From contig OZ024743.1 in NCBI GenBank assembly GCA_964016885.1, positions 121,086,001 through 121,150,000 of the forward strand: a stretch of DNA of 64,000 nt, given 5' to 3'. The DNA is from Eledone cirrhosa. Lineage: Eukaryota. The notes beneath the pieces were generated by a model that was given only the letters and a program-made list of their open reading frames with translations, was not told where the DNA came from and did not search any database. Of the stretch, positions 11,716-63,728 are shown piece by piece. The position numbers were made by a program, and so were the translations under genes. Each line of letters starts with the position of its first letter. Position 1 is the stretch's first letter.

Positions 11716-11758
11716 GTTGGTGGTGAAGAGTTTAGAGTGGAGAAAAAGCAAAAGACAC

Positions 11759-13600
11759 CTACCTGTCCGTCTCATGGGGACCAGGCTGCACAATTTCCAT
11801 GGGGGTGTCGGCGGGGTTGTTTGGTGGGGTGGTGGTTTGGGATGTGGTGGGGACATCAGTGTGTGGTGGGGTGGGGCTGTTTGGTTGTTTGGTGTGGGAG
11901 AGGTGTCTGGGGTGGTGGTGGGGAAACATTTCAAGAGGACGCGGTTGGTAGGTCTAGTACAGGGGTTGCCCATGTCCTCGGGAAAGTTCTGTTTGAGCAT
12001 TGCGTAGGTGTCCCTTGGGATCCTAATCATTTTTAAATGCGGTTTAGTCGCCGCGTTGGTGAACATTTTACCTTCGGTTTCCACCGAAGGGTCTTTGTCT
12101 ATTGTTTGCACAGTGTTTTGTTGTTTGTGTTGATGTATGTATACTGTTTTTTTTTGTGTTGTGTTTGTTTTTGTTTGTTGTTCTTGTGTGTGTTTTCGTT
12201 TTGTAGTATGTGTTATGTTTTCGGGAGGTGTGGGGTTTTTTGTTTGTGATGTTTGTTCTGTTTGTGCTGGTGGATGTGTGTTTGTTGCATTTTTGTTAAT
12301 GTAGTGCCTTTTCTTTCATTTTACAGGTTGAAAGGGTTCTCCCTCGTCGTCACTGGGTGACGTTGATAATGGGTCCTCGTCCGTGTTGTTGGGGAGAGGT
12401 ATATTTTGGAGTTTTGTTGTGGTTGTTTTGTATTTGTTTTAGGTGGGGAGGGGTTGGGTGGGACAGTGTCTTGTGTTGTTATTTTTCCGTTTTGTTGTTG
12501 TGGTGGTGGTGGTTGTTGTGTTGTTGTGTGTGGGGTGGGCAGAAGCGTCTTTTTTGAGGGGGGGTATATAAAAGGGGACAGGAAGTCCTCAGGTGACCAC
12601 TTATTGAACAGTGGTAGCATGAAGGCCGCCTGCCCTCAACAGAAATGTTTATGAAGGCGACTCCATCCAGGGACACACGCTGCGGTATTCTTGCTATCCA
12701 TTCTGGTCTCATTTGGACCAGAACTTCAAGGCTATTGCCGCCGAATACGCCCCCGGTGGATTCGCTTATCGAAAGGATTGTGTCCTCATCTTCTAAGAAT
12801 CCCATTAGCATCCACCAAATGCTCGCATTTGGCCTGATGCCCGAGATTCTTATCTTTTGAGTTCTTTTCCCCAAATATGTGGGGGAAAAAGGTGTATGCT
12901 TTGGATATAATTGGCGACACAGAATATTTCCGTGCCGCCAATTCATCTTGCATTAAAACAGATATGCTTCCATACAGTTTCCCTTTCTGTATGAAAGCCA
13001 TATCCTTCCAGGCACTACTTAGGACAAGCTCAATTTCGCTTTGTGATAATTGAGCGGTTTCCTAGTCGTGTTCGAAACTGTCCTAAAGATTACAGTCCTG
13101 AGGACTCTGTCCCTTCTAATTTCTTCGGGAGAGGTGATTGCGAATTCCCCACCTTCCCCGAAATTTACACAATTCCTTGCTTCTTTCAGCAATTTCTTGG
13201 CATTCGAGATGTCCAGTGCCTTGTATGTCTGCGTTTCTCGGACCGCCTGTGCGAAGAAGACTGCAGCTGTGGGTCCATTTTCTTTCGTGTTGTTATCATT
13301 GTTGTTTGTTATTCGTGTTGGCTTGCTTTTTTCCTTTGTTGGTGTTGTCATTATTGCTGTTGTTGGTTGTGTTGTCATTGTCATTGTTGCTGTTGTTGGT
13401 TGTGTTGTTATTGTCATTGTTGATCTTGTTTGTGTAATTGTTATTTTGGGGTTTTCACCAATTTCCACAATTATTTCTTTTGATTCCGTGATGTCTTTTG
13501 CGGGAGTGAGGAGGGAAGGATTACAGCGTTGTGCTGCTACCTTCTCTCTATCACTTTCCTTGGAGGGGGGGGGGGGCATGCGTCGGATTAATGGCGTCCA
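11759..13600 (-). pseudogene. Copy A ORF1 (gag-like RNA-binding protein, zinc knuckle CYHCSISGHLRTSC), frameshifted
   Basis: Track ORFs 13019-13579, 12786-13001, 12479-12946 and 11575-12111 align with copy B ORF1 pieces (RTV.FRTVSNTTRK, QMRPE.I..IP); ends MEIVQPGPHETDR-TAG at 11759-11761. Confidence 0.8.
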
Positions 13601-13796
13601 TTGTCACTAAACGACTTTTTATCGACAAATTAATTTCGCCCCAAAAAGGGGCGAAATTTATTTTACCCAACGTCTGCACGCCCAGGCGAGGGGTTAAACA
13701 CAACAAATAACAAATTACTTAAACAGACCTACCGCTTCTCGTAATAAAATCCGACAAAATGCAGAAGCGAAACAAAAACACGTCTATCTTCTCCGA

Positions 13797-13847
13797 GATA
13801 GATAGATAGATAGATAGATAGTTAGATAGATAGATAGATAGATAGAT
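13797..13847. repeat. (GATA)n tract between Tx1 copies A and B
   Basis: Direct reading. Confidence 0.95.
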
Positions 13848-14117
13848 TTCTTTTATTTGCCACAAGGGCGCACAAGAAAAGGGGACAATACAAAGACATA
13901 CCGGGGATTTTACATACAGTCGTGTAAAAAATATAAAACAAACAATTACAACAATCGAAATCCCCAATAGGGGGGAACCGCCACAAATGGGACGAGCTGT
14001 GGGAAAGCCTGTCTGACAAATGGTGCCCACACCAGTTGGGGGTCGATAGAACAACCATCAACCCCAGGAGCGTATTGTGCAAGTGGTCCTTTCTTCCTTT
14101 TGCTCTCTTCTTTAACA

Positions 14118-17100
14118 TACAGGCTTATAAACAGACAAGGCCCAATCACTCGGGCCGTTTTTGCTTCATTCACCCACCTTTCAGTAAATTTACTGGGGTG
14201 CAGTGCCTCTCTCTCCACTCTGATTCTCCTTCTAAAGTGATACTTAAAGAAGGGAATCAAATGTTTGTCCGGAGAGAAAGCATCTGTCTTCAGTCCTCTC
14301 AATCTCGTCCACCATATAACTTATTTCACCATAGCCACTGTACAGAGAAAAACCGCCTTTCTTTCGCTTTTGAGAAAGGCTGGCGGTTTGATCCTTACTA
14401 TGGACACGGGAGTCAACTGGATTTGTCCCATACGCGACAGCAGTTCTGCATAGTTCCACAGGTCGGTTACGCCCGGGCAGCGTACAATTGCGTGCAGGAC
14501 TGTTTCAATATCCTGCGCGCATCTTGGACACGTCCTCTTGGAAGGATCCCTGCCGAGGCGTCCGTGCCTGTATATCTTGTCACGACTCAGTAGAGCTCTA
14601 CGGTAGCACTGTCAGGCCAGGGACCTCTGCAAGTTGTCCATAGGTCTCGGGCGGAAAGTCCTACCAAACAGACTGGTGAGCTCATCGTCTCCGACGCACA
14701 GAGTCTCTCCGAGCACGTCGTCGCCCTTGTAACGTACAATCCCTCTATAGAATGTCGAAGTGGCGTCTACACTGATTGCTGCGCCCGCTTGCCAGAGGAC
14801 TGTGAGCGCCTGAGCGCATTCAATGTGCCAGGCGCCCATCGTTTTCGGTCTTTTCTTGACCCAAGACTGCAGCTCTGTCAGCGAGACGAGCTGTGGGAAA
14901 GCCTGTCTGACAAACGGTGCCCACACCGGTTGGGGGTCGGTGAGGAATACCTGGAGATGCCGCAGCCTCAGCGCATGTTTGTGCATCATCAAACACGGCA
15001 TTCTCATGCCTCCGTTGGAAGGGTGCTGAAAGCAGACGGATCTCGTCACCTGCGGAGCCTGCTTCTTCCACAGAAACTGGAAGAGCATGCGTTCCATCTT
15101 GGCGAGGTGTTCACGGTGACAAGGCACGACAGTCAAGCGGTAGTAGATGACGGACGCTATGAAAGTGTTCGCCACCTCCGCTCGACGTTTCAAGGACAGT
15201 TTGCACTCTGCCCATTTCTGGGTGAGCGCAAACACCTTGGCCGTCACCTCGTTCCAGTTTTTCTCCACCTGGAGGTCTGAACAGAACCAGACCCCGAGCA
15301 ATTTCACCGGTCTGTCCGTCCAGCATCCAACGACGCTGTCGGACGTCATCGGTTTGCGTCTCCACATACCGAGTTGCAAACCGACAGACTTGTCCGGGTT
15401 TAGTTTTGCTCCCGTCAGAGTTTCGTATTCTTTCAGTAAGTTGCCTATCACACCGATTCTCGAGGTGCTCGACACCATTACCGTCACGTCGTCGACATAA
15501 GCCGACGCCGCTTTGCGCAGTTCCGGTTCTAGAGGGATGCCCTGCAACAACTCCAATTTCCGCAGTAGTGACTCTAGAGTCAATACATACAGAATGGAAG
15601 AGAGAGGGCACTCCTGTCGAATGGAACGAGTGATTGCGAACGGCTCCGATAGGTAGCCGTTCGCCTTGACCCTCGAGTAAATGCTGGTGTGCATCGCCTC
15701 AATCCAGCCTCTGAAAACGGGACCGAAACCGGCCGCCTTGAGAACCGCTTCCAAGTATCGATGGTCGACCCTATCGAATGCCTTAGACTGATCCAAATTG
15801 ATCAGAGCCCCACCGAAGCCGAGTTTACTACCCACCCTCTCGATGCTGTATCGCATGAGGTGGAGGTTGTTGTGTATGGACCTGGTCGGGATTGCACACA
15901 TTTGCGCTTTCCCTACCAGGTTCTCGACGACAAGCACCAACCTCGTCGCTAGCACCTTGGCCAAAATCTTTAACTCTGTGTTGAGCAGAGTTATGGGCCT
16001 GAAGTTGTTAATTTCGTCCCCCTTGTTCTCGTCTTTCCTGATCAGCGTTACTACGCCCTTGCCTGCAGAACTGGGAATTCTCCCGTTCTGCTGCCAATTG
16101 CAGTAGACGGCTTCGAGGACGCCAGAGAACAAGTCCGGCATGCCTATGTAAAATTCATAGGGTAGACCATCTAGACCTGGTGACTTGCGTTTCCCGCAGC
16201 GGCCCAGAGCGTCAGTATCTCAGTGTCCGTGATCGGTCTTTCGCAGAACTCGGCGTCCGTGTTCGAGAGACGCGGCAGGCCATCGAGGTATCAACTAAAG
16301 TCCATTACCCCGTTCGGTTCACCGTCGTTCTGCTGAAACAGTCCGCAAAGTGCTGCTGAAAGGCTGCGCACATTTGCTTGGGGTCAAGTAGCACGCGTCC
16401 GTTTTGGTCTTTCAAAAACCCAATCGTGGACTTGTTGCCACTTTTTGCCTCCGCCACTCGGGCCCAGCTGACAACTTTCGCTCCTTCGTTTCCTAGAGCA
16501 CGTGTTTTGCTTCTGACCACGTAGCCTTCGTGTTTCACGTAGAAGAACTGGTCTAGTGCCGTTATCGACGTTAACACTCTATCCCCGTTTCCACTTCTAA
16601 GTGCCTCCTCTACCTTGGCTACTAGTTCTCTTTCTATTTTGCTTTTCTCTAAGGCTAACTCTCTGCTAAACTCTATCGATTCTACTCTAATTGCTTTCTT
16701 GAGAGAGTACCACCATCTATTGTTGACGATGGCTCCCTTTAACTGTTGCTTGACTAGTCTACTTATCCGTTCACTGTAAGCTTTACGTGCCGGCAACGAC
16801 ACGTTCAGCTTCCAGTATCCAGGTCCCTGTCTATGTATTCTATCACGGTTGACTAAGCAGACGACTAATTTGTGATCAGAGCAGGCAACCCTGTGCATTC
16901 GTGGTCAGCTTAACATCTCCTTGTCCCTTTCTCTAATGAAGAACCTATCTAAATACGATCTAGATGTCCCTCTGCGGTTTTCCCACGTCCACTGTGGTGC
17001 AGTCGGGAAATCCAGTCGATATCTATCGGCCAGTTGGAATTTGCCGATTAAAGTTTTGAGGCTGTTGCACCCCCACACCACCCCCCACTCTACTGGGACA

Positions 17101-17571
17101 TGCTCCCACACAGTCCCATCGTGCATCTAGGATACCATTCCAGTCCCCCACTAAAAGTAAGGAACGAGATATTCCCAGAAATATACTCTAGACGCTTAAA
17201 GAAGTCTGGCCGTGATTGCGATTGCCCGGTTGGGGCATAAACGGCCACCAGTCTGAAGGCTCCACCTCCAATACTGTTCACATCTAGGACTACCAGTCTA
17301 TCCTCCGGGTCCAAGTGTACTTGCTGTACTTCGACGTCCAGGTTCTTCCGAAACATGAAGCCACTCCCCCTCCGCCTCCTGGCTGTCAGAGAGATGCGTA
17401 GATCTCAAAGTCGTCGGAGATGGGGGTTAGTTGCTGCCTGTTCTGGATCCTGGACTCGGTGATGGCTATCACATCCATACCGTGTGACCTAAGGTCGTTT
17501 AAAAGTTGGCCCTGTTTCCAGGGCATCCCTAGGCCACGCGCATTCACGCTTTTAACTCGTAAACTAGCCAT
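14118..17571 (-). pseudogene. Copy B ORF2 (APE-RT), frameshifted
   Basis: Start MASLRVKSVNARGL; pieces 17386-17571, 17090-17356, 16905-17126, 16305-16898, 14612-16141 and 13946-14302. Confidence 0.92.
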
Positions 17572-17612
17572 GTTGGTGGAGAAGAGTTGGTGAAAAGAAC
17601 GAAAAGGTGCAC

Positions 17613-19381
17613 TTACCTTTTTGTATCCTGGAGATCGGGTTGTACAATCTCCATTTCAGTTCTGGTGGGGATGTTGGGTGGGGTGGGGAAACATTTTAAT
17701 AGGACGCGGTTTTTGACAGGGGTTGCCAATATCCTGCGAAAACTGTTTTTTCAATTTCTGATAGGTTTCTATCGAAACCCTTATTGGTTTTAGGTGTGGA
17801 GACGATTCTGCTTTGATGAAAGTTTTGCCCTCCGTCTCCAACTTGGGGTTTTGGGAGAAGACCTCCATCAAACTCTTGTTATTTGTGTTGATGTATGCGT
17901 ATTTTTGTTTGTGTTATTGTTGTGATGTTTTAGTTTGTTGTTCGTCCGGGAGTTTTCTTTTTATGGTGGGTGCTTGTGTGTGACCGTGGTGTTGTTTGTG
18001 TTGTTGTTTGTGTCTGTGGTTGTGTGTTGGTGTTGGTGATTGGAGGTTTGGGGGTTTTGTGGTGTCTCTTTTTTGTTTTTTAGATTTCCGAGGCTCTCCT
18101 TCTTCTTCACTTAAAGAAGGAGAAGCAGCCTCATCTGTCAATGAATAATCATCGTCAGGATTGTTGGGCAGGGGTATGTTGTGTGGTGGTGGTATTTCAG
18201 TGTGTGTGTTTGTGGTAGTGTTTGATGGAGTGGGATGGGTGGCTGTGTTCTTCAGGGGTGTTGTCTGTGTTTTTTCTGTTGTTGTTGGTTGTTTTGGTGT
18301 GTTTGCTCGTTTCGTCTGTTGTTGTACTTGTGGTGGTGGTTGTTTTGGTGTTGGTTTGGTAATAGTGTTTTTTTAATGATGTTGTTGTGGTGTGTTTGTG
18401 ACGGACAGGAGGCCTTTAGGTGTGCTACCACAGCGAAAGCAATGAAGTTTTCGTCCCCCCACCGTAATGTTTAATTTGTTGTTGTCGTCGATGATGACTT
18501 TTCCGGGTATTTTGGAGATTCTCTCCGGCCTCATTTGCAACTGAAACTCCAAATCAGTACCCGCCCACCTTTGTCTAATAGACTTTCGTATCGAAACAAT
18601 CATATCAGTCTCTGGCTCTACGAAGCCAGCAAAGATCCACCAGATGTTAATGTTTGGTGGTATATTTTTATTTTTTTATTTTTGTGTCCTTTTTCCCATG
18701 TACGTAGGGAAAAAAGTGAATGCTTTTGACACCATTGGTGTCACAGATTGTTTTGGGCGAGTGCTTCGCTTTTAAACAGTACGGAAACACTCCCGTACTG
18801 TTATCCTCGTTGGAGAAAGTCAATATTTGCTAGAGTCTCCTTGAAGGTGGCTTCTATATCTGCTTTACTAACAAATATCGACTTTCTCGTTGTGTTGGAG
18901 ACAGTCCTAAAGGTCACTGTCCTTCGAACTGTCTCTTCTTTTATTTTGAGGGGTGACTTAATTCTAAACCCACCCTTGTCTTCGAAAGTTACAAATTTTC
19001 TCCCTTGCTGGAGCATATCTCTTGCATTGGAGATGTCAAGATTTATAAAATCTTATTTTTTGTTCACTGTTTCAGCGAAAGACATGGTGTGGTGTTGCTG
19101 TTGTTGTTGCTGTTGTTGTTGTTGTTGTTGTTGTTGTTATCGTTGTTAGCCTCGGTGTTGGAAATCTCAATTTCTTGACGAGGTGAAACTTTATGTGTAG
19201 ATGTATCTATGGAGTTGTTGATGTTGTCTTTTTCATGTGTATGTATGTCAATAGGTTTAATTCCTGTGTTTTCCTGTGTGTTATTGTTATTTTTCTCCGC
19301 TTCGACGCTAGAAATTTTAAAATCTTCAAGTGGTAATATCTTTTTCTCTTTGTTGACAGTCGTATCTACGGCGACGTCCAT
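17613..19381 (-). pseudogene. Copy B ORF1, frameshifted
   Basis: Pieces 19064-19381, 18801-19016, 18373-18603 (HCFRCG knuckle start), 17914-18141 and 17656-17871; ends MEIVQPDLQDTKR-TAA. True start uncertain. Confidence 0.78.
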
Positions 19382-19679
19382 AGTAGCAGAAGCAGATATA
19401 ACGTTAATATCTGCTTCTCTACCTCTCTTCTCTCTGTCGACGTTCTTTAACGTTCTTTCCAGGCTATTCCTGTTTTATAGTTGGTAAAATTTGATATTTT
19501 AAAACAAATTTTAAATTAAATTTTCCGTCCTAAAGGGGCAAAAAATGGGATTACTACCCAACTGACAACTCAGCTTGGGGGTTAATCTACAAAATGATAT
19601 GTTTTTTCAAACAATTAGTTCGGTTTTTTGCATAGAAATTAACAAAACAGCTTACCGGCGATGTTCCACGCGTCAGGCA

Positions 19680-33063: not shown

Positions 33064-33598
33064 CTATGTGTCCGGTCTAAAGAAAAAGAAAGAGCTAAGT
33101 ATGGTATGGGGGCAGGACGAGAAGATTTCTGATCTCCTGTTGAGCAAGTTGAGCCCTGAGAATACTATGGCATGAGATTCAGATAGGCATAGGCTACAAC
33201 ACCTGCTCAACGAGCTATATGGAGGAGCCTTAGTAAGGCATCTCCAGCTGAGTGTGTAGGGGGTTTTTGTTTGTTTTAAGCTATGTATATGCCCCGCTAA
33301 CGACGTGGTATTTTTAAGCTTCTCATTTCGGAAGCTATGCTGGTGGGCGTTGAACCTCGTCTTGAACTCATTAGCGGTTGATCCTACGTACGTCTTACTA
33401 TACGTGCCTGTGGTTACGTTACAAGCATATACCACGTTCCTGATAAGGCAGTGTCCAGCTAGTGGGCATTTGTCCTTCTTTCTGCAATTACACTCTTTAG
33501 TAGGGACATGCCCCTCAATCAGGGGTGCATGTCCCTCCAAGCGGCCCCGGGGCTGCCTAGTGGGACCGGTTCTATTGCCTAATATCCCCTGGGTCTTT
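33064..33598 (-). CDS. Penelope GIY-YIG endonuclease domain, out of frame with the RT
   Basis: CNCR..CPL.G.CL, VVY..YVGST, FKTRFNAH, CSLCLSE, LLNRRSE..CPH. Confidence 0.92.
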
Positions 33599-35535
33599 CA
33601 CTCAGTGGGTTGGTCCCGTGTTGTCGTGTGTGCTGGCGTGGTTCACTATTTCGGATGGCCTTAAGTCCCTCTTTGATCTTACTCTTATTGGTCTTAGCTA
33701 GGTGTGAGGCCAGATTAGGGGTTGTAGAGTACGATAGCTTGACAGTATTCTTATTGATGACACTACCGTACCTACTACCCGGGGGGAAGTTCTTATCTAT
33801 TAAAGAGAAAAAAGATTTGGGGAGGTCTGTAGTAACATTAGAGTTGAAGGGCGGGTTAAAGAAGGTACTATCACGTCTTCTATTCCTTCCACTGCATTTC
33901 CTATCCCCTATGCAGTTTGCCCTCTCTTCGTCTATATTATCACTGGTTCCACCAGGTGTGGTTGCTGTACACCCAGTGGTATGTGCGTTGGTCTCAAGTC
34001 TCCTAGGCCTCTGTCCCCCGTTTTCACTGTTGGACTTGCTTGGGGCGGCATAGCGCTTACCAGGCGTGCGGGCCCTGTCCGTGTCTGCGTTGCGAGTGTT
34101 GCTGTTCTTATCTAACTTCCTATTGTCCCTATTCGTCTTTCTAGCTCTCCCTCCAACTCCCATGGACATATTGTGCGTGATTACAGTGCTGGGCTGGGGT
34201 GGCGGGGTGGTGCCTCCTGTCTCAACATAATGGAGTTTATCTTTGTGCCCTGACCCAGTTAGCGCCTTATTGTAATATTCCGCGTTCGCTTCAAATGCGG
34301 TCACGCTGCTAGATAGTCCGCTAATCCTACTAGATACTGCTTTAACTATTGCTTTGAATACTGAGCCTGGGTGGTTGGATCTGGCATTGACGTATGTCAG
34401 CCTTTCGTTAGGTTTATGGTACGGTGCATATTCTAACTTATCTAGGTCTAGTGAGGCGTCTAAAAAGTTGACTACCTTACTATTTCTATCCATAGTTATT
34501 GATAGGTTAAAATTCTTGAAGAATTTATAAAGGTCCTTTCTAGTTCTTTCTAGGTTGTGCCGTTTAAAGTCCACAGTAAGCAATGCGTCGTCACGGTATA
34601 GCCCACCTCTGAGGTGTGGGAGCTGCTCGTTGAGCTCCTTGAGCAGGTACAATCCGACGAGGTCTGTCACCTGCGCTGAGTCGCTAGACCCCATAGTGAT
34701 GTCGAAATTGTTACGAGTGTTCTTGCGCGTCCACAATTCATCCTCAAAAGTGATAATTGTTTTACGAGCGGCAAGGACTATGTCAATCTGGGATCTAGCG
34801 AGTCCGCCCGTCCGCATTGCCAACATGAGCGCCTTATTTAGTAGTATGGGGGATATAGACGTATAGTAGGAGTCTATATCGAACTGGATGAAGCGTAGTG
34901 ACTTGTGGTTGCTAATGCTTGAGAACCACTTTATCACTTCTGCAGTGTTTCCCCATAGGTCCAGGCTAATTCTGTCTTTAACTTTCGGTATGACTTCATC
35001 TAGTATTTTTTTACTTATATTCCCTATGTCAGATTTAGAGGGGCTAATGAGCCTGACAGAGGGGCTACTTGCAAAGTCCTCCTTATGGTCTTTCAGTGTG
35101 AACCTTGGTTGTCGGGGGGTATAAGGTTGTGTGCATTTCTCTAATCCTAGCTTCGTTACTATCACTTTAGCCTCCCTGTTAATCTCATCTAGGTTGGCTA
35201 CAGTGGTTTTTTTATAGTTTTTATGTAGCTCGTTGTATATGAAGCCGCGGTATTCCTCATAGCTCAGGTTGTACATATTCCTAGTCTTGTCCGGGGGTAC
35301 TAGTATACACTTTCTGTCCTTAAAAGATTTAACTAGTGATTCTAACTTTGTTTGGAAGCCGCTACGCTTACAGTTATTTCTTTTATATCTAATATATCTA
35401 GTCTTGTCCGAGGGTACTAGTATACACTTTCTGTCCTTAAAAGATTTAACTAGTGATTCTAACTTTGTTTGGAAGCCGCTACGCTTTGTTTGGAAGCCGC
35501 TACGCTTACAGTTATTTCTTTTATATCTAATATTT
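33579..35535 (-). CDS. Penelope reverse transcriptase (N-terminally truncated; the track start at 35600 lies in adjacent repeat DNA)
   Basis: DKTRNMY, LKDHKEDF..VRLISP, FDIDSYY, ITMGS, YRDD, FLD, YHKPN..YVNARSNHP, FFNPPF, NKNTVKLSYS. Confidence 0.92.
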
Positions 35536-35566
35536 AAAAAAATAGAGGTGTAACACACGAGTTGTG

Positions 35567-36072
35567 ATATATTAGTAAAAGGAAAAGAAAATGCTGACAC
35601 ATTTTTCCCAGTGAAAAATAGTTTAATTAGGAATAAGTATAAATTAGTAATAAGTATTGGTTAGTATTCAGTTTTAGTTTAAAGTTTTTACCGGTTGCGC
35701 ATTTCTAATGCTTTTCAAAAATAATTTTGAGATAGAGTGTCGTGATGTTTGCTCTAATCTGATCAGTTTTGGAAATTCTTCCTGTTTTATATGAAAAAAG
35801 TGGCTCCAGAGGTATTAAGATTTGGTTGGTTGCGCCAATTCGTGTTGCAGAAATTCTTGTAGACTACAAAATTGATCAGATTAGAGCAAACATCACGAGC
35901 GCTCTATCTCAAAATTATTTTTGAAAAGCATTAGAAATGCGCAACCGGTAAAAACTTAAAACTAAAACTGAATACTAACCAATACTTATTACTAATTTTT
36001 ACTTATTCCTAATTAAACTATTTTTCACTGGGAAGAATTTGTTAGCATTTTCTTTTCCTTTTACTAATATAT
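35567..36072. repeat. Inverted repeat (~205-bp arms, ~95-bp spacer) with a hammerhead-like motif in each arm
   Basis: 35567-35771 mirrors 35867-36072; ttt TTGAAAA gcat tagaa atgc GCAA ccgg TA aaa at 35918-35953 (+) and 35686-35721 (-). Confidence 0.88.
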
Positions 36073-36689: not shown

Positions 36690-37472
36690 AAATGTAATCT
36701 GAGTTTTTCGAACTTTAATAATAATTGTTTCTACTTTTGGCACAAGGCCAGCAATCATATCAGTGAATTACTGGTACTTTATTTTATCGACCCCGCAAGG
36801 ATGAAAGGCAAAGTTAGCCTCGGCGGGATTTGAACTCAGATCGTAAAGGCCCGTAACTCCATGCTGCAAACCATGGCGTCCGACCCGCTAACGATACTGC
36901 CAATCCACCGCCCTTTTAATAATAATATTCGATTCGTTTGTAATTATGTAAACAAGCCTCTGTTGGCATGTAAACAGAACTGCAGACACTAATGTTTATG
37001 CGTATTACCCTTCATCAGTACAGTTTACTGTTCACCTGCCAACTGTTAGAGCTAGTGAAAATATATGCTATTTTTTAAAATATACTGTGACTGATCTGCC
37101 TGATTTGCATATTAGCTGACTGGCTGATCAGTCAAATCTGCATATTAGCGGATCCACTGATCAGACAGATTTGCATATCAGTAGACTAGCTAGTCAGTTT
37201 CCTATATACGAGCGATTAATAGCCGGCTTTGCTAAATCAGTCACTGTATATTTAGAAAATATATATTTTCACTAGCTCATCAGTACAGTTCACTGTACTG
37301 ATGAAGGGTAATACCCAGAAACATTAATTTCTGCAGTTCTGTTTACATGCCAACACAACAGCAAGAATGAGAGGGTTTATTCTACTGACATGGCTATAAA
37401 AATTAGGCTTGTTTGCATAATTGAAACGAATCGAATATTATTATTAATATTCGAAAAACTCAGATTACATTT
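36690..37472. repeat. Large imperfect palindrome (Penelope pLTR-like) with one arm interrupted by a SINE
   Basis: 36691-36725 mirrors 37437-37472; 36920-37095 mirrors 37237-37445; hammerhead-like motifs at 36980-37023 (-) and 37293-37336 (+). Confidence 0.82.
36726..36912 (-). mobile_element. tRNA-SINE copy inserted at AATAATAAT
   Basis: Family match; flanked by taataataat on both sides. Confidence 0.88.
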
Positions 37473-37518: not shown

Positions 37519-37567
<49 letters not shown>

Positions 37568-37573
<6 letters not shown>

Positions 37574-38692
37574 ATATTTGGGGAGGGTCATATTTGCGTA
37601 ATATTGCCAGAATTAATAACAGAACACACTCACTGTTTGGTTGGTTTTCGCTTCTCGCTGTCTTTTATATATATATATCTGCGATCTAACTTACTCGGTC
37701 CTCAATGTTGCCATTGACTGACCGGCGGTCAAAAATAATACAGATACAATATAGACAAACACATATATATATAGTTTACATAAATCTTTCGTTGCACATC
37801 TGCAACATCGTCAGTGGTGTTATATTCATTGTTCCTCCTGTTGTGTTGTATGTCTACGCCATTTTTTTTTTGTTCAGTCTGTCTATATATTTATTTATTT
37901 ATTTGCTTGTTTGTTTATCTTATTTTATTTTGTCTTCTTTGCGCATGCGTTTGCGTGTGTGTATAGTGTGTGATGTGTGACTAGTGTGTATAGTGTTGTG
38001 TCTGCTGGGTGACTAGTGTGTGTTTATGTGCTTGTGTATGTATTTATTTATCTTATTTTATTTAATTTAATTTACTTATTTATTTATACTTCTCTTAGGT
38101 CAGTGTTGTTTGTTTGGGTGTTGTTGTTGTTCCACTCATTCTTTCTGTTTAGCTTTGGTCTTCTAATTTCTATTTCACTGGCCTCTCTGATTTGCCTATC
38201 TGCTGGGTCATTCCTATGTTTAGATATTATTCTAATTTCTATGTTGTCTATGTTACCGTCATGATGTTGTCTAGCATGTTCGTATAGTACTGACCCGTTT
38301 TTTCGTCCTTTTAGTTCCCCCCAGTGTTGGTCTATCCTTTCACCTATGCTACGAGCTGTCTCACCTACGTATGTTGTTGTCGTGTTTCTGCAAGTACCCT
38401 CTGTACATCTTATGCTATAGACTACGTTTCTAGTTTTACAGTTTATCCGATGTTGCAGATGTGCAACGAAAGATTTATGTAAACTATATATATATGTGTT
38501 TGTCTATATTGTATCTGTATTATTTTTGACCGCCGGTCAGTCAATGGCAACATTGAGGACCGAGTAAGTTAGATCGCAGATATATATATATAAAAGACAG
38601 CGAGAAGCGAAAACCAACCAAACAGTGAGTGTGTTCTGTTATTAATTCTGGCAATATTACGCAAATATGACCCTCCCCAAATATAACAATAT
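37568..38692 (-). mobile_element. Truncated Penelope element of a second family: GIY-YIG domain plus terminal repeat, with inverted copy of the repeat at the 5' break
   Basis: Minus-strand translation of ~38120-38440 (absent from track): CKTRNVVYSIRC..YVGETARSIGERIDQH..SVLYEHARQHH..RQIREASEI..PKLNRKNEW; 37568-37810 is inverted at 38448-38692. Confidence 0.9.
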
Positions 38693-39131: not shown

Positions 39132-39575
39132 TTGAGTTGAGATGGAGGGTCTGTGGTTTTTCTCACATATTCGCACGTTCTTCTGTTCAAAATGAATTAT
39201 TGACTTGATTTTCTCATTTTTCCTCTCTTTACGTTGCCTCACATTTCGTGTTTGTTTACATGTCTCTCTTTCTCTCCCAACTCTTTTTATCCCAATAACT
39301 TATTTTAGTTATTGCATCGCCCTAGCCTGAGGTATATGGTCTGTAATGCGAAGAAATACCTATGATGGCTAGTAGACCACTGATGACGGATAGTCCTGGC
39401 TTCTATTTTTAATTATTCATTTTTATATATATATATAAGTGTAGCTATATATAAATATATATATATATGGTGGGTAATAATAAATAAGTATGAAAATAGC
39501 TCGATGTAAAATAACAAGTATAATACAGAGCCGAAATGAAAAGCAAAGAGTGTTTAAACTTTCAAACATTTAATC

Positions 39576-39777: not shown

Positions 39778-39865
39778 GATGTGACGCGCGTTTCGGGATT
39801 GATCAGCTCAATGTTCACTATCCATTCATAGGCCCGAAATTGGACTCAAAAGCTCATCAGACATC
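39778..39865 (-). ncRNA. Type I hammerhead motif with canonical core and long domain II
   Basis: gatgt CTGATGA g..~57 nt..c GAAA cgcgcg TC acatc, followed by tgAATAAA. Confidence 0.72.
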
Positions 39866-42948: not shown

Positions 42949-43135
42949 GCTATAAATTTCTTAAGTTATACTTCCGTTTGCATTTATCTCTACATAGCAG
43001 TCAGCTTCCAGTACAAAATCAGAGTGGCTTTATCCTTATGTGCAGAACTGATGAATGCAATATAGTGGCATTGCAGATACAGAAGTTTATATATATAGCT
43101 ATATAGGTAAAACAAATTGTAGTGTAAATATATAA

Positions 43136-43315
43136 TTGCTTCTACTTTTGGCACACAGCCAGCAATTAACCAGTGCATTACTGGTACTTTATTTTATCGA
43201 CCCCGTAAGGATGAAAGGCAAAGTTAACCTCGGCGGGATTTGAACTCAGAATGTGAAGGGCCGTAACTCTATGCTTCAAAGAATGGCCTCCGACCCTCTA
43301 CCGATACTGCCAATT
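43136..43315 (-). mobile_element. tRNA-SINE copy
   Basis: Family match. Confidence 0.85.
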
Positions 43316-43319
43316 CAGT

Positions 43320-52571: not shown

Positions 52572-52667
52572 GTATGCATATTATGTATATACACATATAT
52601 ATACATATACATATATATATACACATATGCATATATATGTATGCATATATATATATATATATATATA

Positions 52668-53280
52668 CTGACGAAGGACTATTTTTATCATATGTAACCC
52701 ATGTGCAAACCACGCAGTATTCTTCTTTCTTCTCATGTTTTTTATATATATTTACCTCGGCTGCGTTTGTCTGTTTCTCTCTTACTGCTTCCCCACTCTC
52801 TCTGTTTCTCTCACCTTCTTTCGCCCCCTCTGTCAGTTACACTTTCTCTCGACTGACCTCTTCCTCACACTTCCACTCATTCACTCTCTGTTTCTCCCAT
52901 TCTCACTTCCTCCCGTTAGGCTTGTGTGGGTCTCTTCTTGCTCACATCTCACACACATCAACACGGTCTGTACCTCTCTCGCTCATGAAATCCACCCAGA
53001 TTATGCTGACCGGACAACCATGTTGCTTGTTTATTTTCCTATCTTCGGTTTGCTTTTATCCTTCTATGTTGTTTATTTGTCCCCCTCGCCTTACGCGAAT
53101 TCTAGTCTCAATAACTTTTTTTAGTTATTGCTCGCACCAACCTGAGGTATCTGATTTTTAATGCGATGTAAATACCAATGATGGTTGGAAAATCACTGAC
53201 GAAGGACTATTTTTATCAAATGTAACCCATGTGCAAACCACGCAGTATTCTTCTTTCTTCTCATGTTTTTTATATATATA
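52668..53280 (+). mobile_element. Non-coding 528-bp unit with ~85-bp terminal direct repeat, embedded in (TA)n
   Basis: CTGACGAAGGACTATTTTTATCA.ATGTAACCCATGTGCAAACCACGCAGTATTCTTC.. at 52668 and 53196. Confidence 0.8.
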
Positions 53281-53945: not shown

Positions 53946-55631
53946 TTAATCAATGGTTGCGTTCTTTTTTATGCCACGAGTCTTTTTGGTGACAAATGAA
54001 TGCCACAACATCTCGTTTCATCTCGTCAACAAATAAAACACAGTCGCTTATGTAAGAAAGTGTTAAACGATTATGGCGTCGTCTATTACTTAGAAGAAAT
54101 CTTTCTTCGTTCTACATGCTGCATCTATTTGTTTCAATATTCTGCTGTATACTCAAGATTATTCCAATATTTGCTGTAACTCACACCAAATATTATTCTT
54201 CCGCTTCGACTAGTTATTGATTGAATGCGGAAAATACTGTCTAAATCGTATTCTGGTGAGTTGTGGATCATTATGGACGATTGAAACTCAGTGAACGAAA
54301 TATATTACACTGCTCCATTATGTATGCACCGAGCCATACAGCTGAACAGAATATCTTATTCGTTGTTGTGCTTAATTAAAGTGATGTCATAGAAGGTACA
54401 GGAAATATTGTTATGTTAATGATTGTGCGATTAACAACAAAAGGAACATTGCGAAGAAATGTCAAAATCTTTTAATATTTTTATCCTTGAATTGAAAGCC
54501 CCCAAATGTATTGTCTGGTATTTATAAATTAATAATTTTATCGCAACGCGACAGATTTTGTTTAGATTCATGTTATTTGTAATGAATCTAAAATTATTCA
54601 GCTTTTGCAGACAAATGAAGATAAGATAAATTATAGAAACTGACTGTATTGTACAGTTGAGAAATATGATAATTATTAAGTACGGTACACATCCCTCATG
54701 TGCCAAGCAATGAACAATAACAGGCATAAAGTTAAAATACTTAAATGTAAATATTAAAATATATTCTATTTCTTTTTTTTTTTTCAGGAGATTTAATGAA
54801 AACGGCAACTAAATCAAGAGTTGCCATGGTAGTTACTGCGTGTATCATAGCAATATAAATCTTCTGACAGCATTCTCCAAATCACCCAGCAGTCATAAAA
54901 TAGGGATTTCACTGGCTATTAAAAATGCCAGATTGTACGCTACTAGCTGAAAATCTTTTGTATTGGATATAATAGCGGTTTGGGTAGAGTGGTTTATATC
55001 TACAAGAATGCTTTGAAAGAGAAGAAGGGTCTTAAAAGATGGAAGTCAACAAGCAAAAGGGATTTATTTGAATGATGAGGTGAATCAAGAAACACAGATT
55101 CCAGTATAATAACAGTTTACGTTGTTTATGTTTGTTTTTTTTATTGCCAGTCCTGAAGAAGAAGATATATGAACAAAGGTGATCCATCTTTTACAAAGAG
55201 AATCTAGTATTGCATTATCCATTGTGTCCTCTTTATGTAAAGGGCGTGGGGTTTGAGTGTGGAAAAGGGTTTATTTCTAGCATATCGTATAGCACACATG
55301 CTATGTCTTTGGTCCATAATAACAGTAAAACAGGCAGAAATGATACCCAATATAAAACGTAACAGAGGATTATATTAACTCTTCATATCAAGGAATTGTT
55401 TAGTAAAAAACATGTAAACATGGTTTGGTTAAATCAAACGTTTACAATATTTTTATTAGTAAACGGATCATTGCCGTATTTAGTTTTTAATGTGATGCAA
55501 ACATTTCTTTAAAATGTTAATTAAGTGGGAGACATCTAAAATGAGCTTGATAATCCAAATGTTTATAATATTTTACTAGCGCAGAGATCATTGTGAGAAA
55601 TTTCTCTGTTAGTAAAGAATGCATTAATAAT

Positions 55632-55815
55632 TGTTTCTACTTTTGGCACAAGGCCAGCAATTACCCCAGTGCATTACTGGTACTTTATTTTATCAACCCC
55701 GTAAGGACGAAAGGCAAAGTTAACCTCGGTGGGATTTGAACCCAGAACGTAAGGGGTCATAACTCTATGCTGCAAAGTTTGGTGTCTGACGCTCTATCGA
55801 TACTGCCTATCCAAA
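55632..55815 (-). mobile_element. tRNA-SINE copy
   Basis: Family match. Confidence 0.85.
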
Positions 55816-58222: not shown

Positions 58223-59118
58223 TTGTTTCTACTTTTGGCACAGGGCCAGCAAGTACCCAGTGTATTACTGGTACTTTATTTTATCGACCTCGTAAAGGAT
58301 CATAACTCTATGCTGCAAAGCATAGCGCCCGACCCTCTACCGATATTGCCAATCCATGAATAATAAGTGTGTCTACTTTTGGCACAAGGCCAGCAATCAC
58401 CCAGTGTACTTTATTTTATCGACCCCATAAGGATGAAAGGCAAAGTTAACCTCGGCAGGATTTGAACTCAGAATGGCAAGGGCCGTAACTCTATGCGTCA
58501 AAGCATGGCGTGCGACCCTCTACCGAAACTGCCAATCCACGATGGTTTTAATTTAGGTACAAGGACAGACATTTTAGAGAAGGTGAACGTCGATTATATC
58601 GACCCCGCTGTTTGACTGGTACTTCATATTATCAACACCGAAATGATGAAAGCCTTCGCTCAGAACTTGAAGAGTCGGAACATATAGTGCTAAACATTTA
58701 TCCGGTGCTCTACTAACTCCGCCAATCCACCCCTGAATAATAATTGTTTCTACGTTAGGCACAAGGCAAGCAATTATCCCAGGGCATTACTGGTGCTTTA
58801 TTTTATCAACCCCGTAAGGATGAAAGGCAAAGTTAACCTCAGCAGGATTTGAACTCAGGACGTAAAAGGCCATAACTCTATGCTGCAAAACATTGTGTCT
58901 GACGCTCTACCGATACTGCCAATTCACCGTAGTCAGTTATATAATTGTTTCTACTTTAGGCACAAGGCCAGCAATTACCCAGTGCATTACTGGTACTTTA
59001 TTTTATCGACCCCGTAAGGATGAAAGGCAAAGTCAACCTCGGCGGGATTTGAACTCAGATCATAAAGGGACGTAACTATGCTGGAAAGCATGGCGTCCGA
59101 CCCTCTACTGATACTGCC
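58223..59118 (-). mobile_element. Cluster of five co-oriented SINE copies
   Basis: Units start near 58223, 58368, 58555 (variant), 58746 and 58946, mostly preceded by AATAAT tails. Confidence 0.88.
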
Positions 59119-62100
59119 ATGTTATGGCATATGTCTGACCGAATGGCTCAGTAGATAATATTCCCGTTTGAAGAATTTGATATCAGTATTGCAAATTCAG
59201 AAACCATATGCTCATTTACTGTTTCAACTTTCTAAGCTTCAGTGAACTGAACGTTGCATGGTACTATTTACTGCTTGAAAGACTAGGCCATAGGAATTAC
59301 ACATCTTTGCGTAATTCTCACAATTTCAGTAACCAGTGACTAACTGTTGGCAGTTTAATCGGGTTAATTGAAGCATTGAAATAATAATATTCGAGCTATA
59401 CAACTCATCATTAGAGTATATATTTACAATATTTATTGCTTCACTGTGTTTCGATCAGTACTATTTCTGAATACCATTGAATGACATAATCAGGGATATT
59501 TGTAAGACTACATTCAAACTTTACTTTTAAACTGAGGTTACGTACGTATTTAGCTACTAAACTACTTACGCACTTTATATTAAAGAATAAGACATTTGAC
59601 GATAATATTCAATTCGAACGAGTTGGCATTCGCATTTAGTATATTTTTGAAAATAAATTACTCAGAAAAGCAATCTAATTTTCTACGTTAAATGGTTTAC
59701 AATATTATTGGTCTGCGTCATGATTCAGTTATCTCTACTTTGGCAAATACCGTCAGGTATCTTCTTCGCCGAGAAAGCTGAGTGCGATAGAATTGTTTGA
59801 ATCCCCTCCCATAGTTGCCGGAATGATAAAGATAATATTAATTATTGATTAATATATTCTTTTACTCGCAGCATAAATATTTCTAACTGGATTTTAATGC
59901 TTACCGAATTAAATATATAAATTAACCAAATTATGAAAAATAACAATTTGATTATAGAAATTATAAAACGAGCACTACTCCCACTGACATGACTCGATGC
60001 TGAGAATAATTTTCCGTTTTTATTATGCTAGTTTTATTTGACTTCCAGGATTTTTCAAAATTTTTATCGTCTAAACATGAGCGATTGGTTCTTCGTTTAC
60101 TTGTGTTAGGTATTGGCAACTACGTTTGCCAGTATTCTGGATTTCATTTTTCACCTGGATCTACTTAGAACTTGATGTAGCATCGAACTATTACTTCTCT
60201 ATGAAGCAAATATTGATAGTAATAAATACTCCCAAATCTTCAGCAACTCCCATACTTTGAAATATTTGTGATACCTTCGAATTCCCAATACTACTTGTGT
60301 ATTATATACGTTTTGCAGCATGTGTTTGCTATTCCTTGTCAAATCAGAGAGCATGCCGCTGAAAGTAAATATAAATGGAAATGGGATTTTTAATCTTATC
60401 ATTCTTTATTACCAACAAACTCACATTCAGAAATATATACATGCAAGAAACAAATCAAGATGGACATGTATCAAAAGCTGGGGAAAATAATGATTGATGT
60501 AGAGTAATAAGCTTACAATACGCATAATGCATAAAATCCGCTAACAAAAATTTCCAGGCTTTATAGTTTACGATATTTTATTGATACGTGTCATCTTCTT
60601 CCAGTCCTTCTCCATATGAGAAGGATCACAATGCTAAAGGACTTTTCATTGTTAAGAGAAAAGTCAATCATTTGGGGAATGGCATCACTAGTTTTGTGCT
60701 AGTAAATATAGTTCGTCGTTATAAATAATATGCAGCTTTTCCTAAACATTACAAAGGAATGAGTCAAGATATTGTTCACATATCGGATTATATATCTTCT
60801 GTCTTTCCTCAGTTCTTCTCAACTATATAGTGTTCCTCTGTCTCCCACACTATCATTTTATAAGATTTATTGACAATATATTACGACCCTTTCTTTATTC
60901 AAACATATGCAGTTGAACATAGCGACTCATTTTTTATGTAACTACCCCAATTAATTGAAAGCTAAAATTAATATTTTGACAGATTATCACATGATTTTAA
61001 AGCTTCCAAAAAGCTTTGCAGTAGACATTCAACTTCATTCTATTTAATTTATTAACATCACGTTCTATTTAAACACACATTAATTCTTTCCTTTTACGAA
61101 ATATTTTCCTGAATATATTTTCAGTATTTATATGCTTTGTACATATTCTGCATTTGTGGAGATCATGACATTTCTAGAAGCAAACGGGATTGTAAATTAT
61201 ACGTTTTTTACACGAAGATTTAGCTAAAAATTAGGGAGAAACTAGGTCATGGACTATCTTACAACGCTTAAATTTAGATCTAAATAAATTACACAAAGAA
61301 ATGTTGGACATTTCTAGTCAGCTTTGAAAAGAATCAGCGAATTTCTGTATTCAAATTGCCGGATCAAATTGTAGAACCAAATTGTGCTTCGATTCTTAAA
61401 ACTTTTTGAAATGATTGATGTTATACAACATATGTAATTTATTCCAAAATGTAAATATTCTGCTTTAATAGATTTATTCTGAAAATAAAATATTACTGTA
61501 TGAACGAAGTGACTTGTAATAGGGAAATAATTACAAGATGTTTGAATCAAGTTGATGTATAGAATATGAAGATAATACTATTTTCCATCACTATATCCAT
61601 CTATATCTAACTTAAAATGTTAAACTGTATGAAATTTTGTATATTCTATTTTCAGGCTTACTTTGGATCATGTGCACAACCAGTAATTTCATCTGAAAAT
61701 ATTGCATACAAGATTTATGGAAACCAATGAAATTACCGAAAAAGAGACCCAATAAAAAAGAGGAATACTGAACAAAAATAAAAGAAAACAAATATTAAAA
61801 CGCAGCAAGAAATCTGATGGGAATATCTTCAATATTGTCTGCTATTCTTTACACAGACATCTTTCCTATTTATTGATCTTTATAAACAAATATGTTGCCG
61901 GGCAACACACATCAAAACTAAGAAAATCAAAACATTCAACTCCTTAACAAAATAAATAGAGTTCAAATATCGTTCTAGTATTAATGTGAAGATGAATTAA
62001 CCTAACTCTTCGTTATCAATCAAGTTATTTCAATGTCACTGAAGTGTAATGAAATAGAAATCATATTTTCAAGGATGTTATCATCATTATTTCGCAGTTG

Positions 62101-63547
62101 TTGTTATTAATGTCATCACCATCGACATCATACAGCTATTATCGATTTATTGCAGCACGCACCTTTAAACCAATCGATCTAAAAGATTTCCTATTCAAGA
62201 AGACGAATAGAAATACACATTCTGTACATTTATCGAAATCTAAGTCGTATTCTTGTTGTTGCTGTTTATGCCTATCTCTGTGTAGGTATCTGTGGTTGTG
62301 TACAAGTGTGCTTCTACATGAATGGTGATCTTGTAATTGAAAAATGGTAAGCTTCCGGCGATTTGAATCAGTAACCTGGTTTCGAAACCATTCACTACAA
62401 ATTTATGCTAATAATATTCTTTCAGAGACAAGAACGTTTCGCTCTCGGAACCCATTCAAAACAGCTAAGGATATGTACCCTGCTAAAAACCTAAATAATA
62501 TGAGGTGTGTGTATGAGCGATTATATGGGTGCATGTGTGTAGGCGTGTATACAAAGGGAGACCATAACATGGAACTGTAGAAATATAACACTGCACTGCG
62601 TGTATAATTAATACGGTTTTGTTTGCTTTGTTTTTACCATTGACTAATGATTTGGAAGACTGTTATTACTGCACCACAACTGAAGTGACTCGCTTTAGAA
62701 AAACTAGAGAAGGCACAAGCACATACAACAACAGACCAACTTAGGCATGGTGATGTGATAAAGTTCGCACCACAGACTCATTGTATCGGGTCGGATTCCA
62801 TTGGATGTTAAGTTAACCAATGCTTCACAGGTAGAGTGTGTAGTGTGGCAAAATAACTTCAGTTTCAATTCCGAAGGGATCTGGTCACAAGCTGAAGAAC
62901 ATTTCAAGTTTTTCGTATGGATGAGAAGGTGAAAACGATATTGCATATCGTTTTTCTTGGATGTATTTCTGAGTCCCCTGTCATATTGCTCCATCCTAAT
63001 AATCTAGTCTTGACATGAAATGATTTTCATTACCGTAGTGGGAGCCATATACATATGCAAAAATAAAACCACCATTGCTCCAATTAATCTACTAACTCTC
63101 AGCAAACAACCAAAATCAAATGCCAACATGTACCCCTGAATCCTGCCTATCCAAACCTTACTCTCTCTAAATTCACAGGATCACAAAATCCACCTAATGA
63201 GGAAAAGAGACGTTGTCAAGCTGCAGCTGTCATATAATGGAGTTTCTATATAATAAAGTCAACCTTATTTTTATCTGCAGCGACTACGACCCCATTACAT
63301 AATAGTCCGTAGCCCCAGCTCCTCCCGTTGTCTTTCGACTTTAAACCCTCAAAATATTCACTTAGATGACATGATGTTGCGAATCGGGAAGTCTAGTTCA
63401 TACAACACAACATAAAAAGAAAACAGAAATAATAATTATCAACAAAATACCCAAGCTATTAAAGAAAATAAGCGAAATGAAGCCAAGAAAAAAAAAATAA
63501 ATATGATATCAGAAAATCCGATAACAAAGTTATAAACCCAAATGTCT

Positions 63548-63728
63548 GGATTGGCAGTATCGGTAGAGGGTCGGAGGCAATGCTTTGCAGCATAGAGTTA
63601 TGGCCCTTTAAGGTCTGAGTTTCAGTCTCACCGAAGTTAACTTTGCCTTTCATCCTTACGGGCCTGATAAAATAAAGTGATGCACTATGTTAATTGCTGG
63701 CCTTGTGCAAAAAGTAGAAACAATTATT
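63548..63728 (+). mobile_element. tRNA-SINE copy
   Basis: Family match. Confidence 0.82.

What the first reader, a model, noticed from the sequence alone, without database searches (positions are those of the whole stretch)
39293..39386. Covarying box C/D-type kink-turn module directly upstream of a hammerhead-like core, shared by two diverged elements
Here: hairpin CAATAACT/AGTTATTG, then ctagc-CTGA-ggtat..atacc-tAT-GATG-gctag, then CTGATGA. At 53109-53202: the same hairpin, then ccaac-CTGA-ggtat..atacc-aAT-GATG-gttgg, then CTGACGA. The outer stem shows compensatory changes (ctagc/gctag vs ccaac/gttgg) around invariant box D CUGA and box C AUGAUG with a 3-nt bulge, which is the canonical Snu13/15.5K-binding k-turn geometry. 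Conserved loop GCGA can pair with upstream TCGC (possible pseudoknot). The orientation is the reverse of a SECIS element. Inference: a retrozyme/PLE-derived RNA that recruits a snoRNP core protein for stability, localisation or control of cleavage. I know of no description of this combination.
Basis: partly seen in the sequence, partly recalled or inferred. Interest (0 to 1): 0.78.

Follow-up and report, generated by a model that had tools for sequence, protein, structure and literature searches.

The report
Scrambled hammerhead ribozyme braced by kink-turn
This stretch belongs to a small non-coding jumping element, present in thousands of copies in this animal genome, whose RNA has all the parts of a hammerhead self-cutting RNA in a scrambled order with a sharp bend (kink-turn) built in; it is predicted to cut itself and likely explains why a large class of animal jumping genes seemed to lack such a ribozyme.

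Summary
The 'loop' of the k-turn hairpin holds the hammerhead cleavage site, one strand of stem I and the GAAA core. The k-turn's inner helix is hammerhead stem III, and CUGANGA follows. The block order is S-G-C, a non-circular permutation that Eckert 2023 found in no genome of a known organism. Two features are new: a k-turn bends stem III back to the ends of stems I and II, and stem II is one pair opening into a helical junction.

Three exclusive patterns give about 12,600 matches in this genome (controls 13). Across 26 subfamily copies, 90% of cells pair and 23 of 35 pairs change on both sides, including 6 of 6 in stem I. The carriers are 0.5-0.7 kb tandem non-coding units ending at (TA)n, like retrozymes.

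Read by eye, 15 published Naiad retrotransposon consensuses, a class said to lack hammerheads, show S-G-C or C-S-G order; two Octopus ones have the k-turn. Box C/D letters vary between families, so the k-turn is likely structural first. Cleavage is untested, and no mobilising element was found in this genome.

The parts
39287..39393 (+). Copy 1: complete permuted (S-G-C) hammerhead fold with k-turn
39287..39292 (+). P0 5' strand (pairs with 39388-39393, the strand after the CUGANGA block)
   Evidence: covariation; MFE
39293..39314 (+). P1 hairpin (optional; absent in the old F12 family)
39317..39320 (+). P2 5' strand (pseudoknot with 39348-39351); P2 continues hammerhead stem II
39331..39335 (+). 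Hammerhead stem III 5' strand = k-turn C-helix, ending in U16.1; pairs with 39356-39360
   Evidence: 97.7% of cells paired; 100%
39336..39336 (+). H17: predicted cleavage 3' of this base
   Evidence: analogy to the hammerhead core; H = A, C or U in the parsed copies (required by the parse)
39337..39342 (+). Stem I strand a (pseudoknot with 39374-39379)
   Evidence: 6 of 6 pairs change on both sides
39343..39356 (+). 4-nt linker, P2 3' strand, N11.1 (39352) and GAAA core (block G)
39361..39372 (+).
39374..39387 (+). Stem I strand b, CUGANGA core (39380-39386) and N10.1 (39387; a C.A mismatch with 11.1 in this subfamily)
39150..39424 (+). 5'-truncated copy of family F1 (unit about 565 bp), ending at (TA)n
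53103..53209 (+). Copy 2: same fold; H17 at 53151, stem I 53152-53158/53189-53195, core 53196-53202; one-base insertion at 53169 breaks GAAA, so this copy is likely inactive
52667..53271 (+). Family F2 element: one 528-bp unit plus a direct terminal repeat (52667-52743 = 53195-53271), between two (TA)n tracts

Best explanation
The motif is one hammerhead-type fold with its three blocks in the non-circular order S-G-C and a k-turn capping stem III, carried once per unit by tandem non-coding repeats that end at (TA)n; it is predicted to self-cleave after 39336 (53151), and the repeats are likely retrozymes derived from and moved by Penelope-like elements, most likely Naiads. Mechanism. (1) Shown by covariation: helices P0, P1, P2, NC, III and I. 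(2) Inferred: the k-turn folds the far end of stem III back by about 130 degrees, so that the NC helix reaches the far ends of stem I and of P2. This replaces the loop I-loop II contact of ordinary hammerheads. (3) Inferred: stem II is the single 10.1-11.1 pair, with P2 and P0 meeting it in a 3- or 4-way junction. (4) Predicted: tandem transcripts are cut once per unit into 0.5-0.7 kb monomers that can circularise. (5) Inferred: a PLE RT/GIY-YIG protein nicks (TA)n and starts reverse transcription at two internal sites 30-90 nt after the core, giving fixed 3' ends and ragged 5' ends.
For: Every core element is adjacent to its stem as in a hammerhead. The patterns fixed no stem pairing, yet alignment A1 (26 copies) has 90.4% of cells paired and 23 of 35 pairs changing on both sides, 0/500 shuffles, slid controls 28-48% paired. 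A2 (13 copies, 11 lineages) has 91.9% and 18 of 23. The same kind of pattern gave only unstructured hits elsewhere: 0 of 120 metagenome and 0 of 59 viral loci passed stems I and III, against 46 of 49 parsed own-genome loci. With the k-turn letters unconstrained in the parse, G1b 136, A2b 137 and A1n 122 of 139 distinct copies; G1b-A2b in 30 of 30 copies from the loci fetched without that constraint. 2n varies G 94, U 33, C 9, A 3; Kt-23 likewise tolerates U, C and A there (PMC5061560, passages). Block order, short stem I-II linker and the I-II helix match type SGC, which cleaves in vitro (PMC10085705, parts 3-5). Units are tandem, 513-706 bp, and carry no RT or GIY-YIG frame. 148 of 180 last units reach (TA)5 within 130 nt, against 2 of 31 internal units and 133 of 546 background positions. 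Naiad_Obim and Naiad_Ovul consensuses carry the same fold with k-turn and different stems, and 13 further Naiad places show S-G-C or C-S-G order (supplement of PMC8557442, by eye).
Against: Cleavage is not shown. CUGANGA, GAAA and UH were required by the genome patterns, so their invariance in A1 and A2 is by construction. Stem II is not canonical: 10.1-11.1 is a standard pair in only 69% of rows, and C.A in the subfamily of window copy 1; C.A and U.U also occur there in canonical PLE hammerheads. The 'further pair types' measure did not beat shuffles (58/500 and 80/500), and the rows are related. Copy 2 has a broken GAAA. Craig 2021 calls cephalopod Naiads long inactivated, so the current mobiliser may be another (TA)n-targeting PLE. 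The Naiad parses were by eye, not computed.
Confidence: 0.8

Rival explanations
1. Protein-gated ribozyme: the k-turn is chiefly a docking site for Snu13/15.5K or another L7Ae-family protein, and binding is needed to fold or time the cleavage or to protect the RNA. This can coexist with the fold described above.
For: Both window copies have a perfect box C/D-type k-turn. 3b.3n is U.U in 84 of 139 copies. Archaeal box C/D and U4 k-turns do not fold in ions alone but fold with L7Ae (PMC4382518, Results read). A Poseidon PLE hammerhead was protein-assisted in vitro (PMC11167929, passages).
Against: G2n, which L7Ae contacts, is replaced in whole families: 2,299 matches with 2n not G against 1 control. 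L3 and 4b-4n vary freely. Coral, squid and other Naiads make the bend with a plain bulge or internal loop (by eye). The closed ring of helices could itself drive the kink (inference).
Confidence: 0.2
2. The fold descends from a hammerhead but no longer cleaves; it is kept as the recognition or priming signal for the PLE reverse transcriptase.
For: Stem II is reduced to one often mismatched pair. Insertions end a fixed 30-90 nt downstream of the fold. Hammerhead mutants did not impair insertion by a Poseidon PLE in vitro.
Against: Naiad places found by CUGANGA alone also keep GAAA, U16.1-A15.1 and a non-G H17 across several phyla (by eye). The BLAST-found family members keep the core.
Confidence: 0.1
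3. A captured box C/D snoRNA or U3-like fragment that happens to lie beside a CUGANGA word.
For: The D'-stem-C' order resembles the C'/D' motif of snoRNAs (recalled).
Against: No Rfam hit at gathering score in the window, and no snoRNA or hammerhead hit over the motif at E up to 5 in 5 loci. The would-be guide region is base-paired with covariation, and the boxes vary.
Confidence: 0.02

Closest known systems
Type-SGC hammerhead ribozymes (HRIMA-1 and variants; Eckert et al. 2023, PMC10085705)
   Same: Block order S-G-C, crossing stems, short linker from stem I to the stem II strand, a helix joining the far ends of stems I and II.
   Different: That paper found none in genomes of known organisms and has 0 occurrences of 'kink' or 'k-turn' in its main text. 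Here it is a high-copy animal transposon motif, the joining helix is continuous with stem III through a k-turn, and block C is interrupted: stem II opens into a P0/P1/P2 junction that holds the RNA ends.
Non-LTR retrozymes (Cervera and de la Pena 2020, PMC7229834; Li et al. 2026, 10.64898/2026.07.22.740005)
   Same: Tandem non-coding units with one hammerhead each, thousands of copies, proposed PLE origin.
   Different: Described with type I hammerheads only, and searched with type I descriptors. Units here are 513-706 bp with a permuted ribozyme.
Naiad Penelope-like elements (Craig et al. 2021, PMC8557442)
   Same: (TA)n targeting, partial tandem and inverted copies, and the same 3' RNA fold in Naiad_Obim and Naiad_Ovul (by eye).
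   Different: These elements encode no protein. The paper reports no canonical hammerhead in Naiads and lists unexplained 'HHR_core' and 'HHR_half_core' cases.
Box C/D and Kt-23 k-turns
   Same: 3-nt bulge, G1b.A1n and A2b.N2n, purine at L2, flanking C and NC helices.
   Different: No guide sequence; box letters not conserved; embedded in a ribozyme.

Membership tests
Hammerhead ribozyme | CUGANGA directly 3' of a stem I strand | tested here: met
   Stem I 96.8% paired, 6 of 6 pairs change on both sides; the core word itself was required by the patterns
Hammerhead ribozyme | GAAA into stem III with A15.1-U16.1, followed by H17 | tested here: met
   U-A in 26 of 26 rows (letters required by the patterns), stem III 97.7% paired; broken in window copy 2 only
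Hammerhead ribozyme | A regular stem II between the strand after CUGANGA and the strand before GAAA | tested here: not met
   One pair, standard in 69% of rows; the strands then enter P0 and P2
Hammerhead ribozyme | Site-specific self-cleavage | not testable with these tools
   No assay; no RNA reads available
Type-SGC hammerhead | 5'-3' block order S, G, C | tested here: met
   against the definition
Type-SGC hammerhead | About 3-nt linker from stem I to the stem II strand, and a helix joining the other sides of stems I and II | tested here: met
   4-nt linker with 3 invariant bases in A2 (these bases were required by the pattern for some rows); NC helix 89-94% paired
Type-SGC hammerhead | Uninterrupted block C | tested here: not met
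   The stem II strand is split by P0, the RNA ends and P1
Standard k-turn | C helix, 3-nt bulge, G1b.A1n, A2b.G2n, NC helix | tested here: met
   Both window copies; 1n, 1b, 2b invariant in 14 of 14 medoids, 2n = G in 10 of 14
Standard k-turn | Kinked 3D structure and L7Ae-family binding | not testable with these tools
   Needs FRET, EMSA or a structure
Box C/D snoRNA | Conserved boxes C and D | tested here: not met
   2n, L3, 3b and 4b-4n vary between families
Box C/D snoRNA | Single-stranded guide 5' of box D, or an Rfam family match | tested here: not met
   Region is paired; no Rfam match
Non-LTR retrozyme | Tandem non-coding units with one ribozyme per unit | tested here: met
Non-LTR retrozyme | Type I hammerhead | tested here: not met
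   Order is S-G-C
Non-LTR retrozyme | Expressed linear and circular monomer RNA | not testable with these tools
   No RNA run was available to lay
Naiad PLE (autonomous) | ORF with N-terminal GIY-YIG and RT | tested here: not met
   No such frame in the units
Naiad PLE (non-autonomous derivative) | (TA)n insertion bias and shared 3' structure | tested here: met
   supplement by eye
Naiad PLE (non-autonomous derivative) | A cognate Naiad in the same genome | tested here: inconclusive
   Three motif patterns found none; motif searches miss diverged or decayed copies

The most novel reading that the evidence does not exclude
Non-circularly permuted hammerheads (S-G-C and C-S-G) are the standard, overlooked ribozyme of Naiad retrotransposons across animal phyla. 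In octopods a k-turn-braced form with a split stem II, a seventh topology, drives a family of over 10,000 retrozyme units, and in some families cleavage is tuned by a host L7Ae-type protein.
Probability: 0.55. Interest if true: 0.92.

Novelty: new variant of a known kind. Interest (0 to 1): 0.85.

Why it matters
It would give the non-circular hammerhead permutations their first home in named genomes and a biological role. It would also resolve the stated puzzle that Naiad elements, which dominate many invertebrate genomes, lack hammerheads. Eckert et al. asked how the far end of stem III can connect to the stem I-II helix; a k-turn is a concrete answer. Type I descriptors miss these motifs, so ribozyme and retrozyme counts in animals are likely too low. 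A 107-nt in vitro transcript tests the central claim in a day, and a ribozyme whose fold depends on a k-turn is a natural protein-responsive RNA switch.

Tried and rejected
Canonical reading (CUGANGA, then stem II, then GAAA downstream): no GAAA or stem III follows the core in either copy. snoRNA or catalogued ribozyme: no Rfam match. Autonomous partner in the own genome: the first RT motif gave 2 hits against 1 control, both on the antisense strand of another retroelement; the second gave 0; the endonuclease motif gave a 1,789-match family with C-terminal GIY-YIG, and the model found one old-family copy in 25 of its loci, contiguity not checked. PLE fragments near three ribozyme copies were separated from them by (TA)n (L072, L106, L147). 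The old F12 family, closest to the Octopus Naiad stems, shares only a few hundred non-coding bases upstream. Pfam gave no hit for the three PLE-like frames of the window. Expression: no RNA holder listed. Earlier scan findings: none by sequence or by the full word set, and eight unrelated notes for two words. One search timed out and was redone.

Full report
Observation. The window is repeat-rich eukaryotic DNA full of (TA)n and retroelement fragments from a 3.0-Gb genome. Each copy belongs to its own young family: the 40 best candidates scored of 2,282 and of 1,500 first-look candidates match at 97-100%. A model built from 26 copies finds only these two full copies in the window.

Anatomy. 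Reading copy 1 from 5' to 3': P0 strand (39287-92), P1 hairpin (39293-314), P2 strand (39317-20), NC strand with 3n/2n/1n (39322-30), a 5-nt strand ending in U (39331-35), one unpaired base (39336), a 6-nt strand (39337-42), a 4-nt linker, the P2 partner (39348-51), one base, GAAA (39353-56), the partner of the 5-nt strand (39356-60), a 3-nt bulge, G-A and the NC partner (39364-72), one base, the partner of the 6-nt strand (39374-79), CUGANGA (39380-86), one base, and the P0 partner (39388-93).

Abundance. Three patterns that exclude each other in the main register gave 5,607 (control 1), 4,714 (control 11) and 2,299 (control 1) exact matches, about 12,600 in all. None fixed any base pairing. 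All required CUGANGA, GAAA and UH, so those letters are not independent evidence.

Covariation. A1 holds 26 copies chosen by hand as subfamily representatives from the 49 clusters; truncated and rearranged singletons were left out. 90.4% of 909 cells pair; 23 of 35 pairs change on both sides (shuffles 16.4, 0/500); slid controls reach 28-48% paired. By helix, pairs with double changes: P0 2 of 4, P1 4 of 8, P2 2 of 5, NC 5 of 6, III 3 of 5, I 6 of 6. A2 holds 13 copies from 11 lineages including the old F12 family: 91.9%, 18 of 23, 0/500. Against: the count of further pair types did not exceed shuffles (58/500, 80/500), the rows are related, and the structure was derived from these families. 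As a control, pattern hits in metagenome and viral contigs never had stems I and III together (0 of 120, 0 of 59), whereas 46 of 49 parsed own-genome loci did. Single-strand folding recovers P0, P1, NC and III (z -2.1, -1.5 and -2.6 for copy 1, copy 2 and an intact F2 copy; +0.9 for a decayed F12 copy); it cannot show the pseudoknots.

Stem II. The strand after CUGANGA does not pair with the strand before GAAA beyond position 10.1-11.1, which is a standard pair in 18 of 26 rows and C.A in the subfamily of copy 1. The former strand pairs with the 5' end (P0) and the latter with P2, making a 4-way junction with P1, or a 3-way junction in F12, which lacks P1. This departs from the published assumption that block C cannot be interrupted and is the main reason for caution about activity. 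C.A and U.U at this position are listed for canonical PLE hammerheads in File S2 of PMC8557442.

The k-turn. In 139 distinct copies parsed without constraining these letters: G1b 136, A2b 137, A1n 122, purine L2 137; 2n G 94, U 33, C 9, A 3; L3 U 98; 4b-4n G-C 68, C-G 29, A-U 16. Many of those loci were fetched with patterns that fixed 1b/2b, but the 30 copies from loci L153-182 were not, and all 30 have G1b-A2b. This is the profile of a conserved k-turn but not of conserved box C/D. By established k-turn geometry (included angle about 50 degrees, abstract of PMC5061560) it would turn stem III back towards stems I and II, where the NC helix ends one base from each. That role is inference. Protein help remains possible, since box C/D-type k-turns need L7Ae or tertiary contacts to fold (PMC4382518, Results read).

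The carriers. Units are about 565 (F1), 513-548 (F2), 620 (F3) and 654-706 bp (F4), in tandem, pyrimidine-rich and without RT or endonuclease frames. Copy 2 is one unit with a direct terminal repeat between (TA)n tracts; copy 1 is 5'-truncated. 148 of 180 last units reach (TA)5 within 130 nt of the core, against 2 of 31 internal units and 133 of 546 background positions; F1 ends cluster at 32-47 and 79-92 nt. Two nearby internal start sites and a 30-40 nt tail are the PLE signature (PMC11167929, abstract and passages). This is the layout of non-LTR retrozymes, described so far with type I hammerheads (PMC7229834, passages; bioRxiv 10.64898/2026.07.22.740005, parts 1-2 of 5; its supplements are closed).

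The Naiad link. Craig et al. 2021 (PMC8557442, passages) found no canonical hammerhead in Naiads and flagged 10 'HHR_core' cases (9 of them Naiads) and 8 'HHR_half_core' cases. I read supplement passages around core words by eye: 58 of 62 places for one word and up to 5 places each for six others. The 3' ends of Naiad_Obim and Naiad_Ovul show the whole fold, P0 to P0, with the k-turn and different stem sequences. Eight more places show S-G-C order without a k-turn: Naiad_Bfor (stem I only 2 bp), three near-identical coral-type records, Naiad_Esco, and three records I did not name. Five places among the nematode records show C-S-G order with regular stems I-III. These parses were not computed, and most other places were coding sequence, Chlamys or canonical hammerheads. 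In the own genome I found no Naiad ORF and no ribozyme joined to coding DNA, so descent from Naiads is likely but the present mobiliser is open; C-terminal-endonuclease PLEs are abundant here.

Literature check. In the held library 'type-SGC' with 'hammerhead' gives only Eckert 2023; 'Penelope-like', 'hammerhead' and 'Naiad' give 4 papers, 3 listed, of which I read two in part; none of the 20 listed papers on hammerheads and retrotransposons contains 'k-turn'; 'hammerhead, permutation, Penelope, pseudoknot' since 2022 gives 2 papers, and the 2026 one only cites Eckert. Subscription journals are not covered, and I did not open the Eckert supplements, which could list further hosts.

Verdict. 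A real, strongly covarying RNA fold: a k-turn-braced, non-circularly permuted hammerhead in a large retrozyme-like family, with a probable wider role in Naiad elements. It is a new variant of a known ribozyme. The fold is well supported; cleavage, protein binding and the mobilising partner are untested.

Noticed in passing
Supplement of PMC8557442, nematode Naiad consensuses: Five places show the other non-circular order, C-S-G, with regular stems I-III and an extra helix joining stems I and II; that type was published from two metagenome sequences only.
   Followed up: partly
L362-L391 (94 matches): Old F12 family lacks hairpin P1 (3-way junction) and has the stem III and k-turn most like the Octopus Naiad version.
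   Followed up: partly
window 33064-35660 (-): [quoted passage not shown]
   Followed up: partly
window 37566-38692: GIY-YIG 3' fragment (38084-38503, -) inside a perfect 245-nt inverted repeat, typical of a PLE inversion.
   Followed up: no
window 37298-37340 (+): Hammerhead-like core in the canonical order (CUGANGA, short hairpin, GAAA) before a (TA)n tract.
   Followed up: no
window 39780-39830: Decayed canonical hammerhead pieces on both strands.
   Followed up: no
window 36719-36907, 43129-43317, 55625-55813, 58351-59126, 63544-63678: Dispersed 140-190 nt repeat family, 6-8 copies, one inverted.
   Followed up: no
window 9044-19474: Several nested, broken non-LTR retrotransposon copies with endonuclease and RT frames on the minus strand.
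   Followed up: no
L392-L416 (1,789 matches): [quoted passage not shown]
   Followed up: partly
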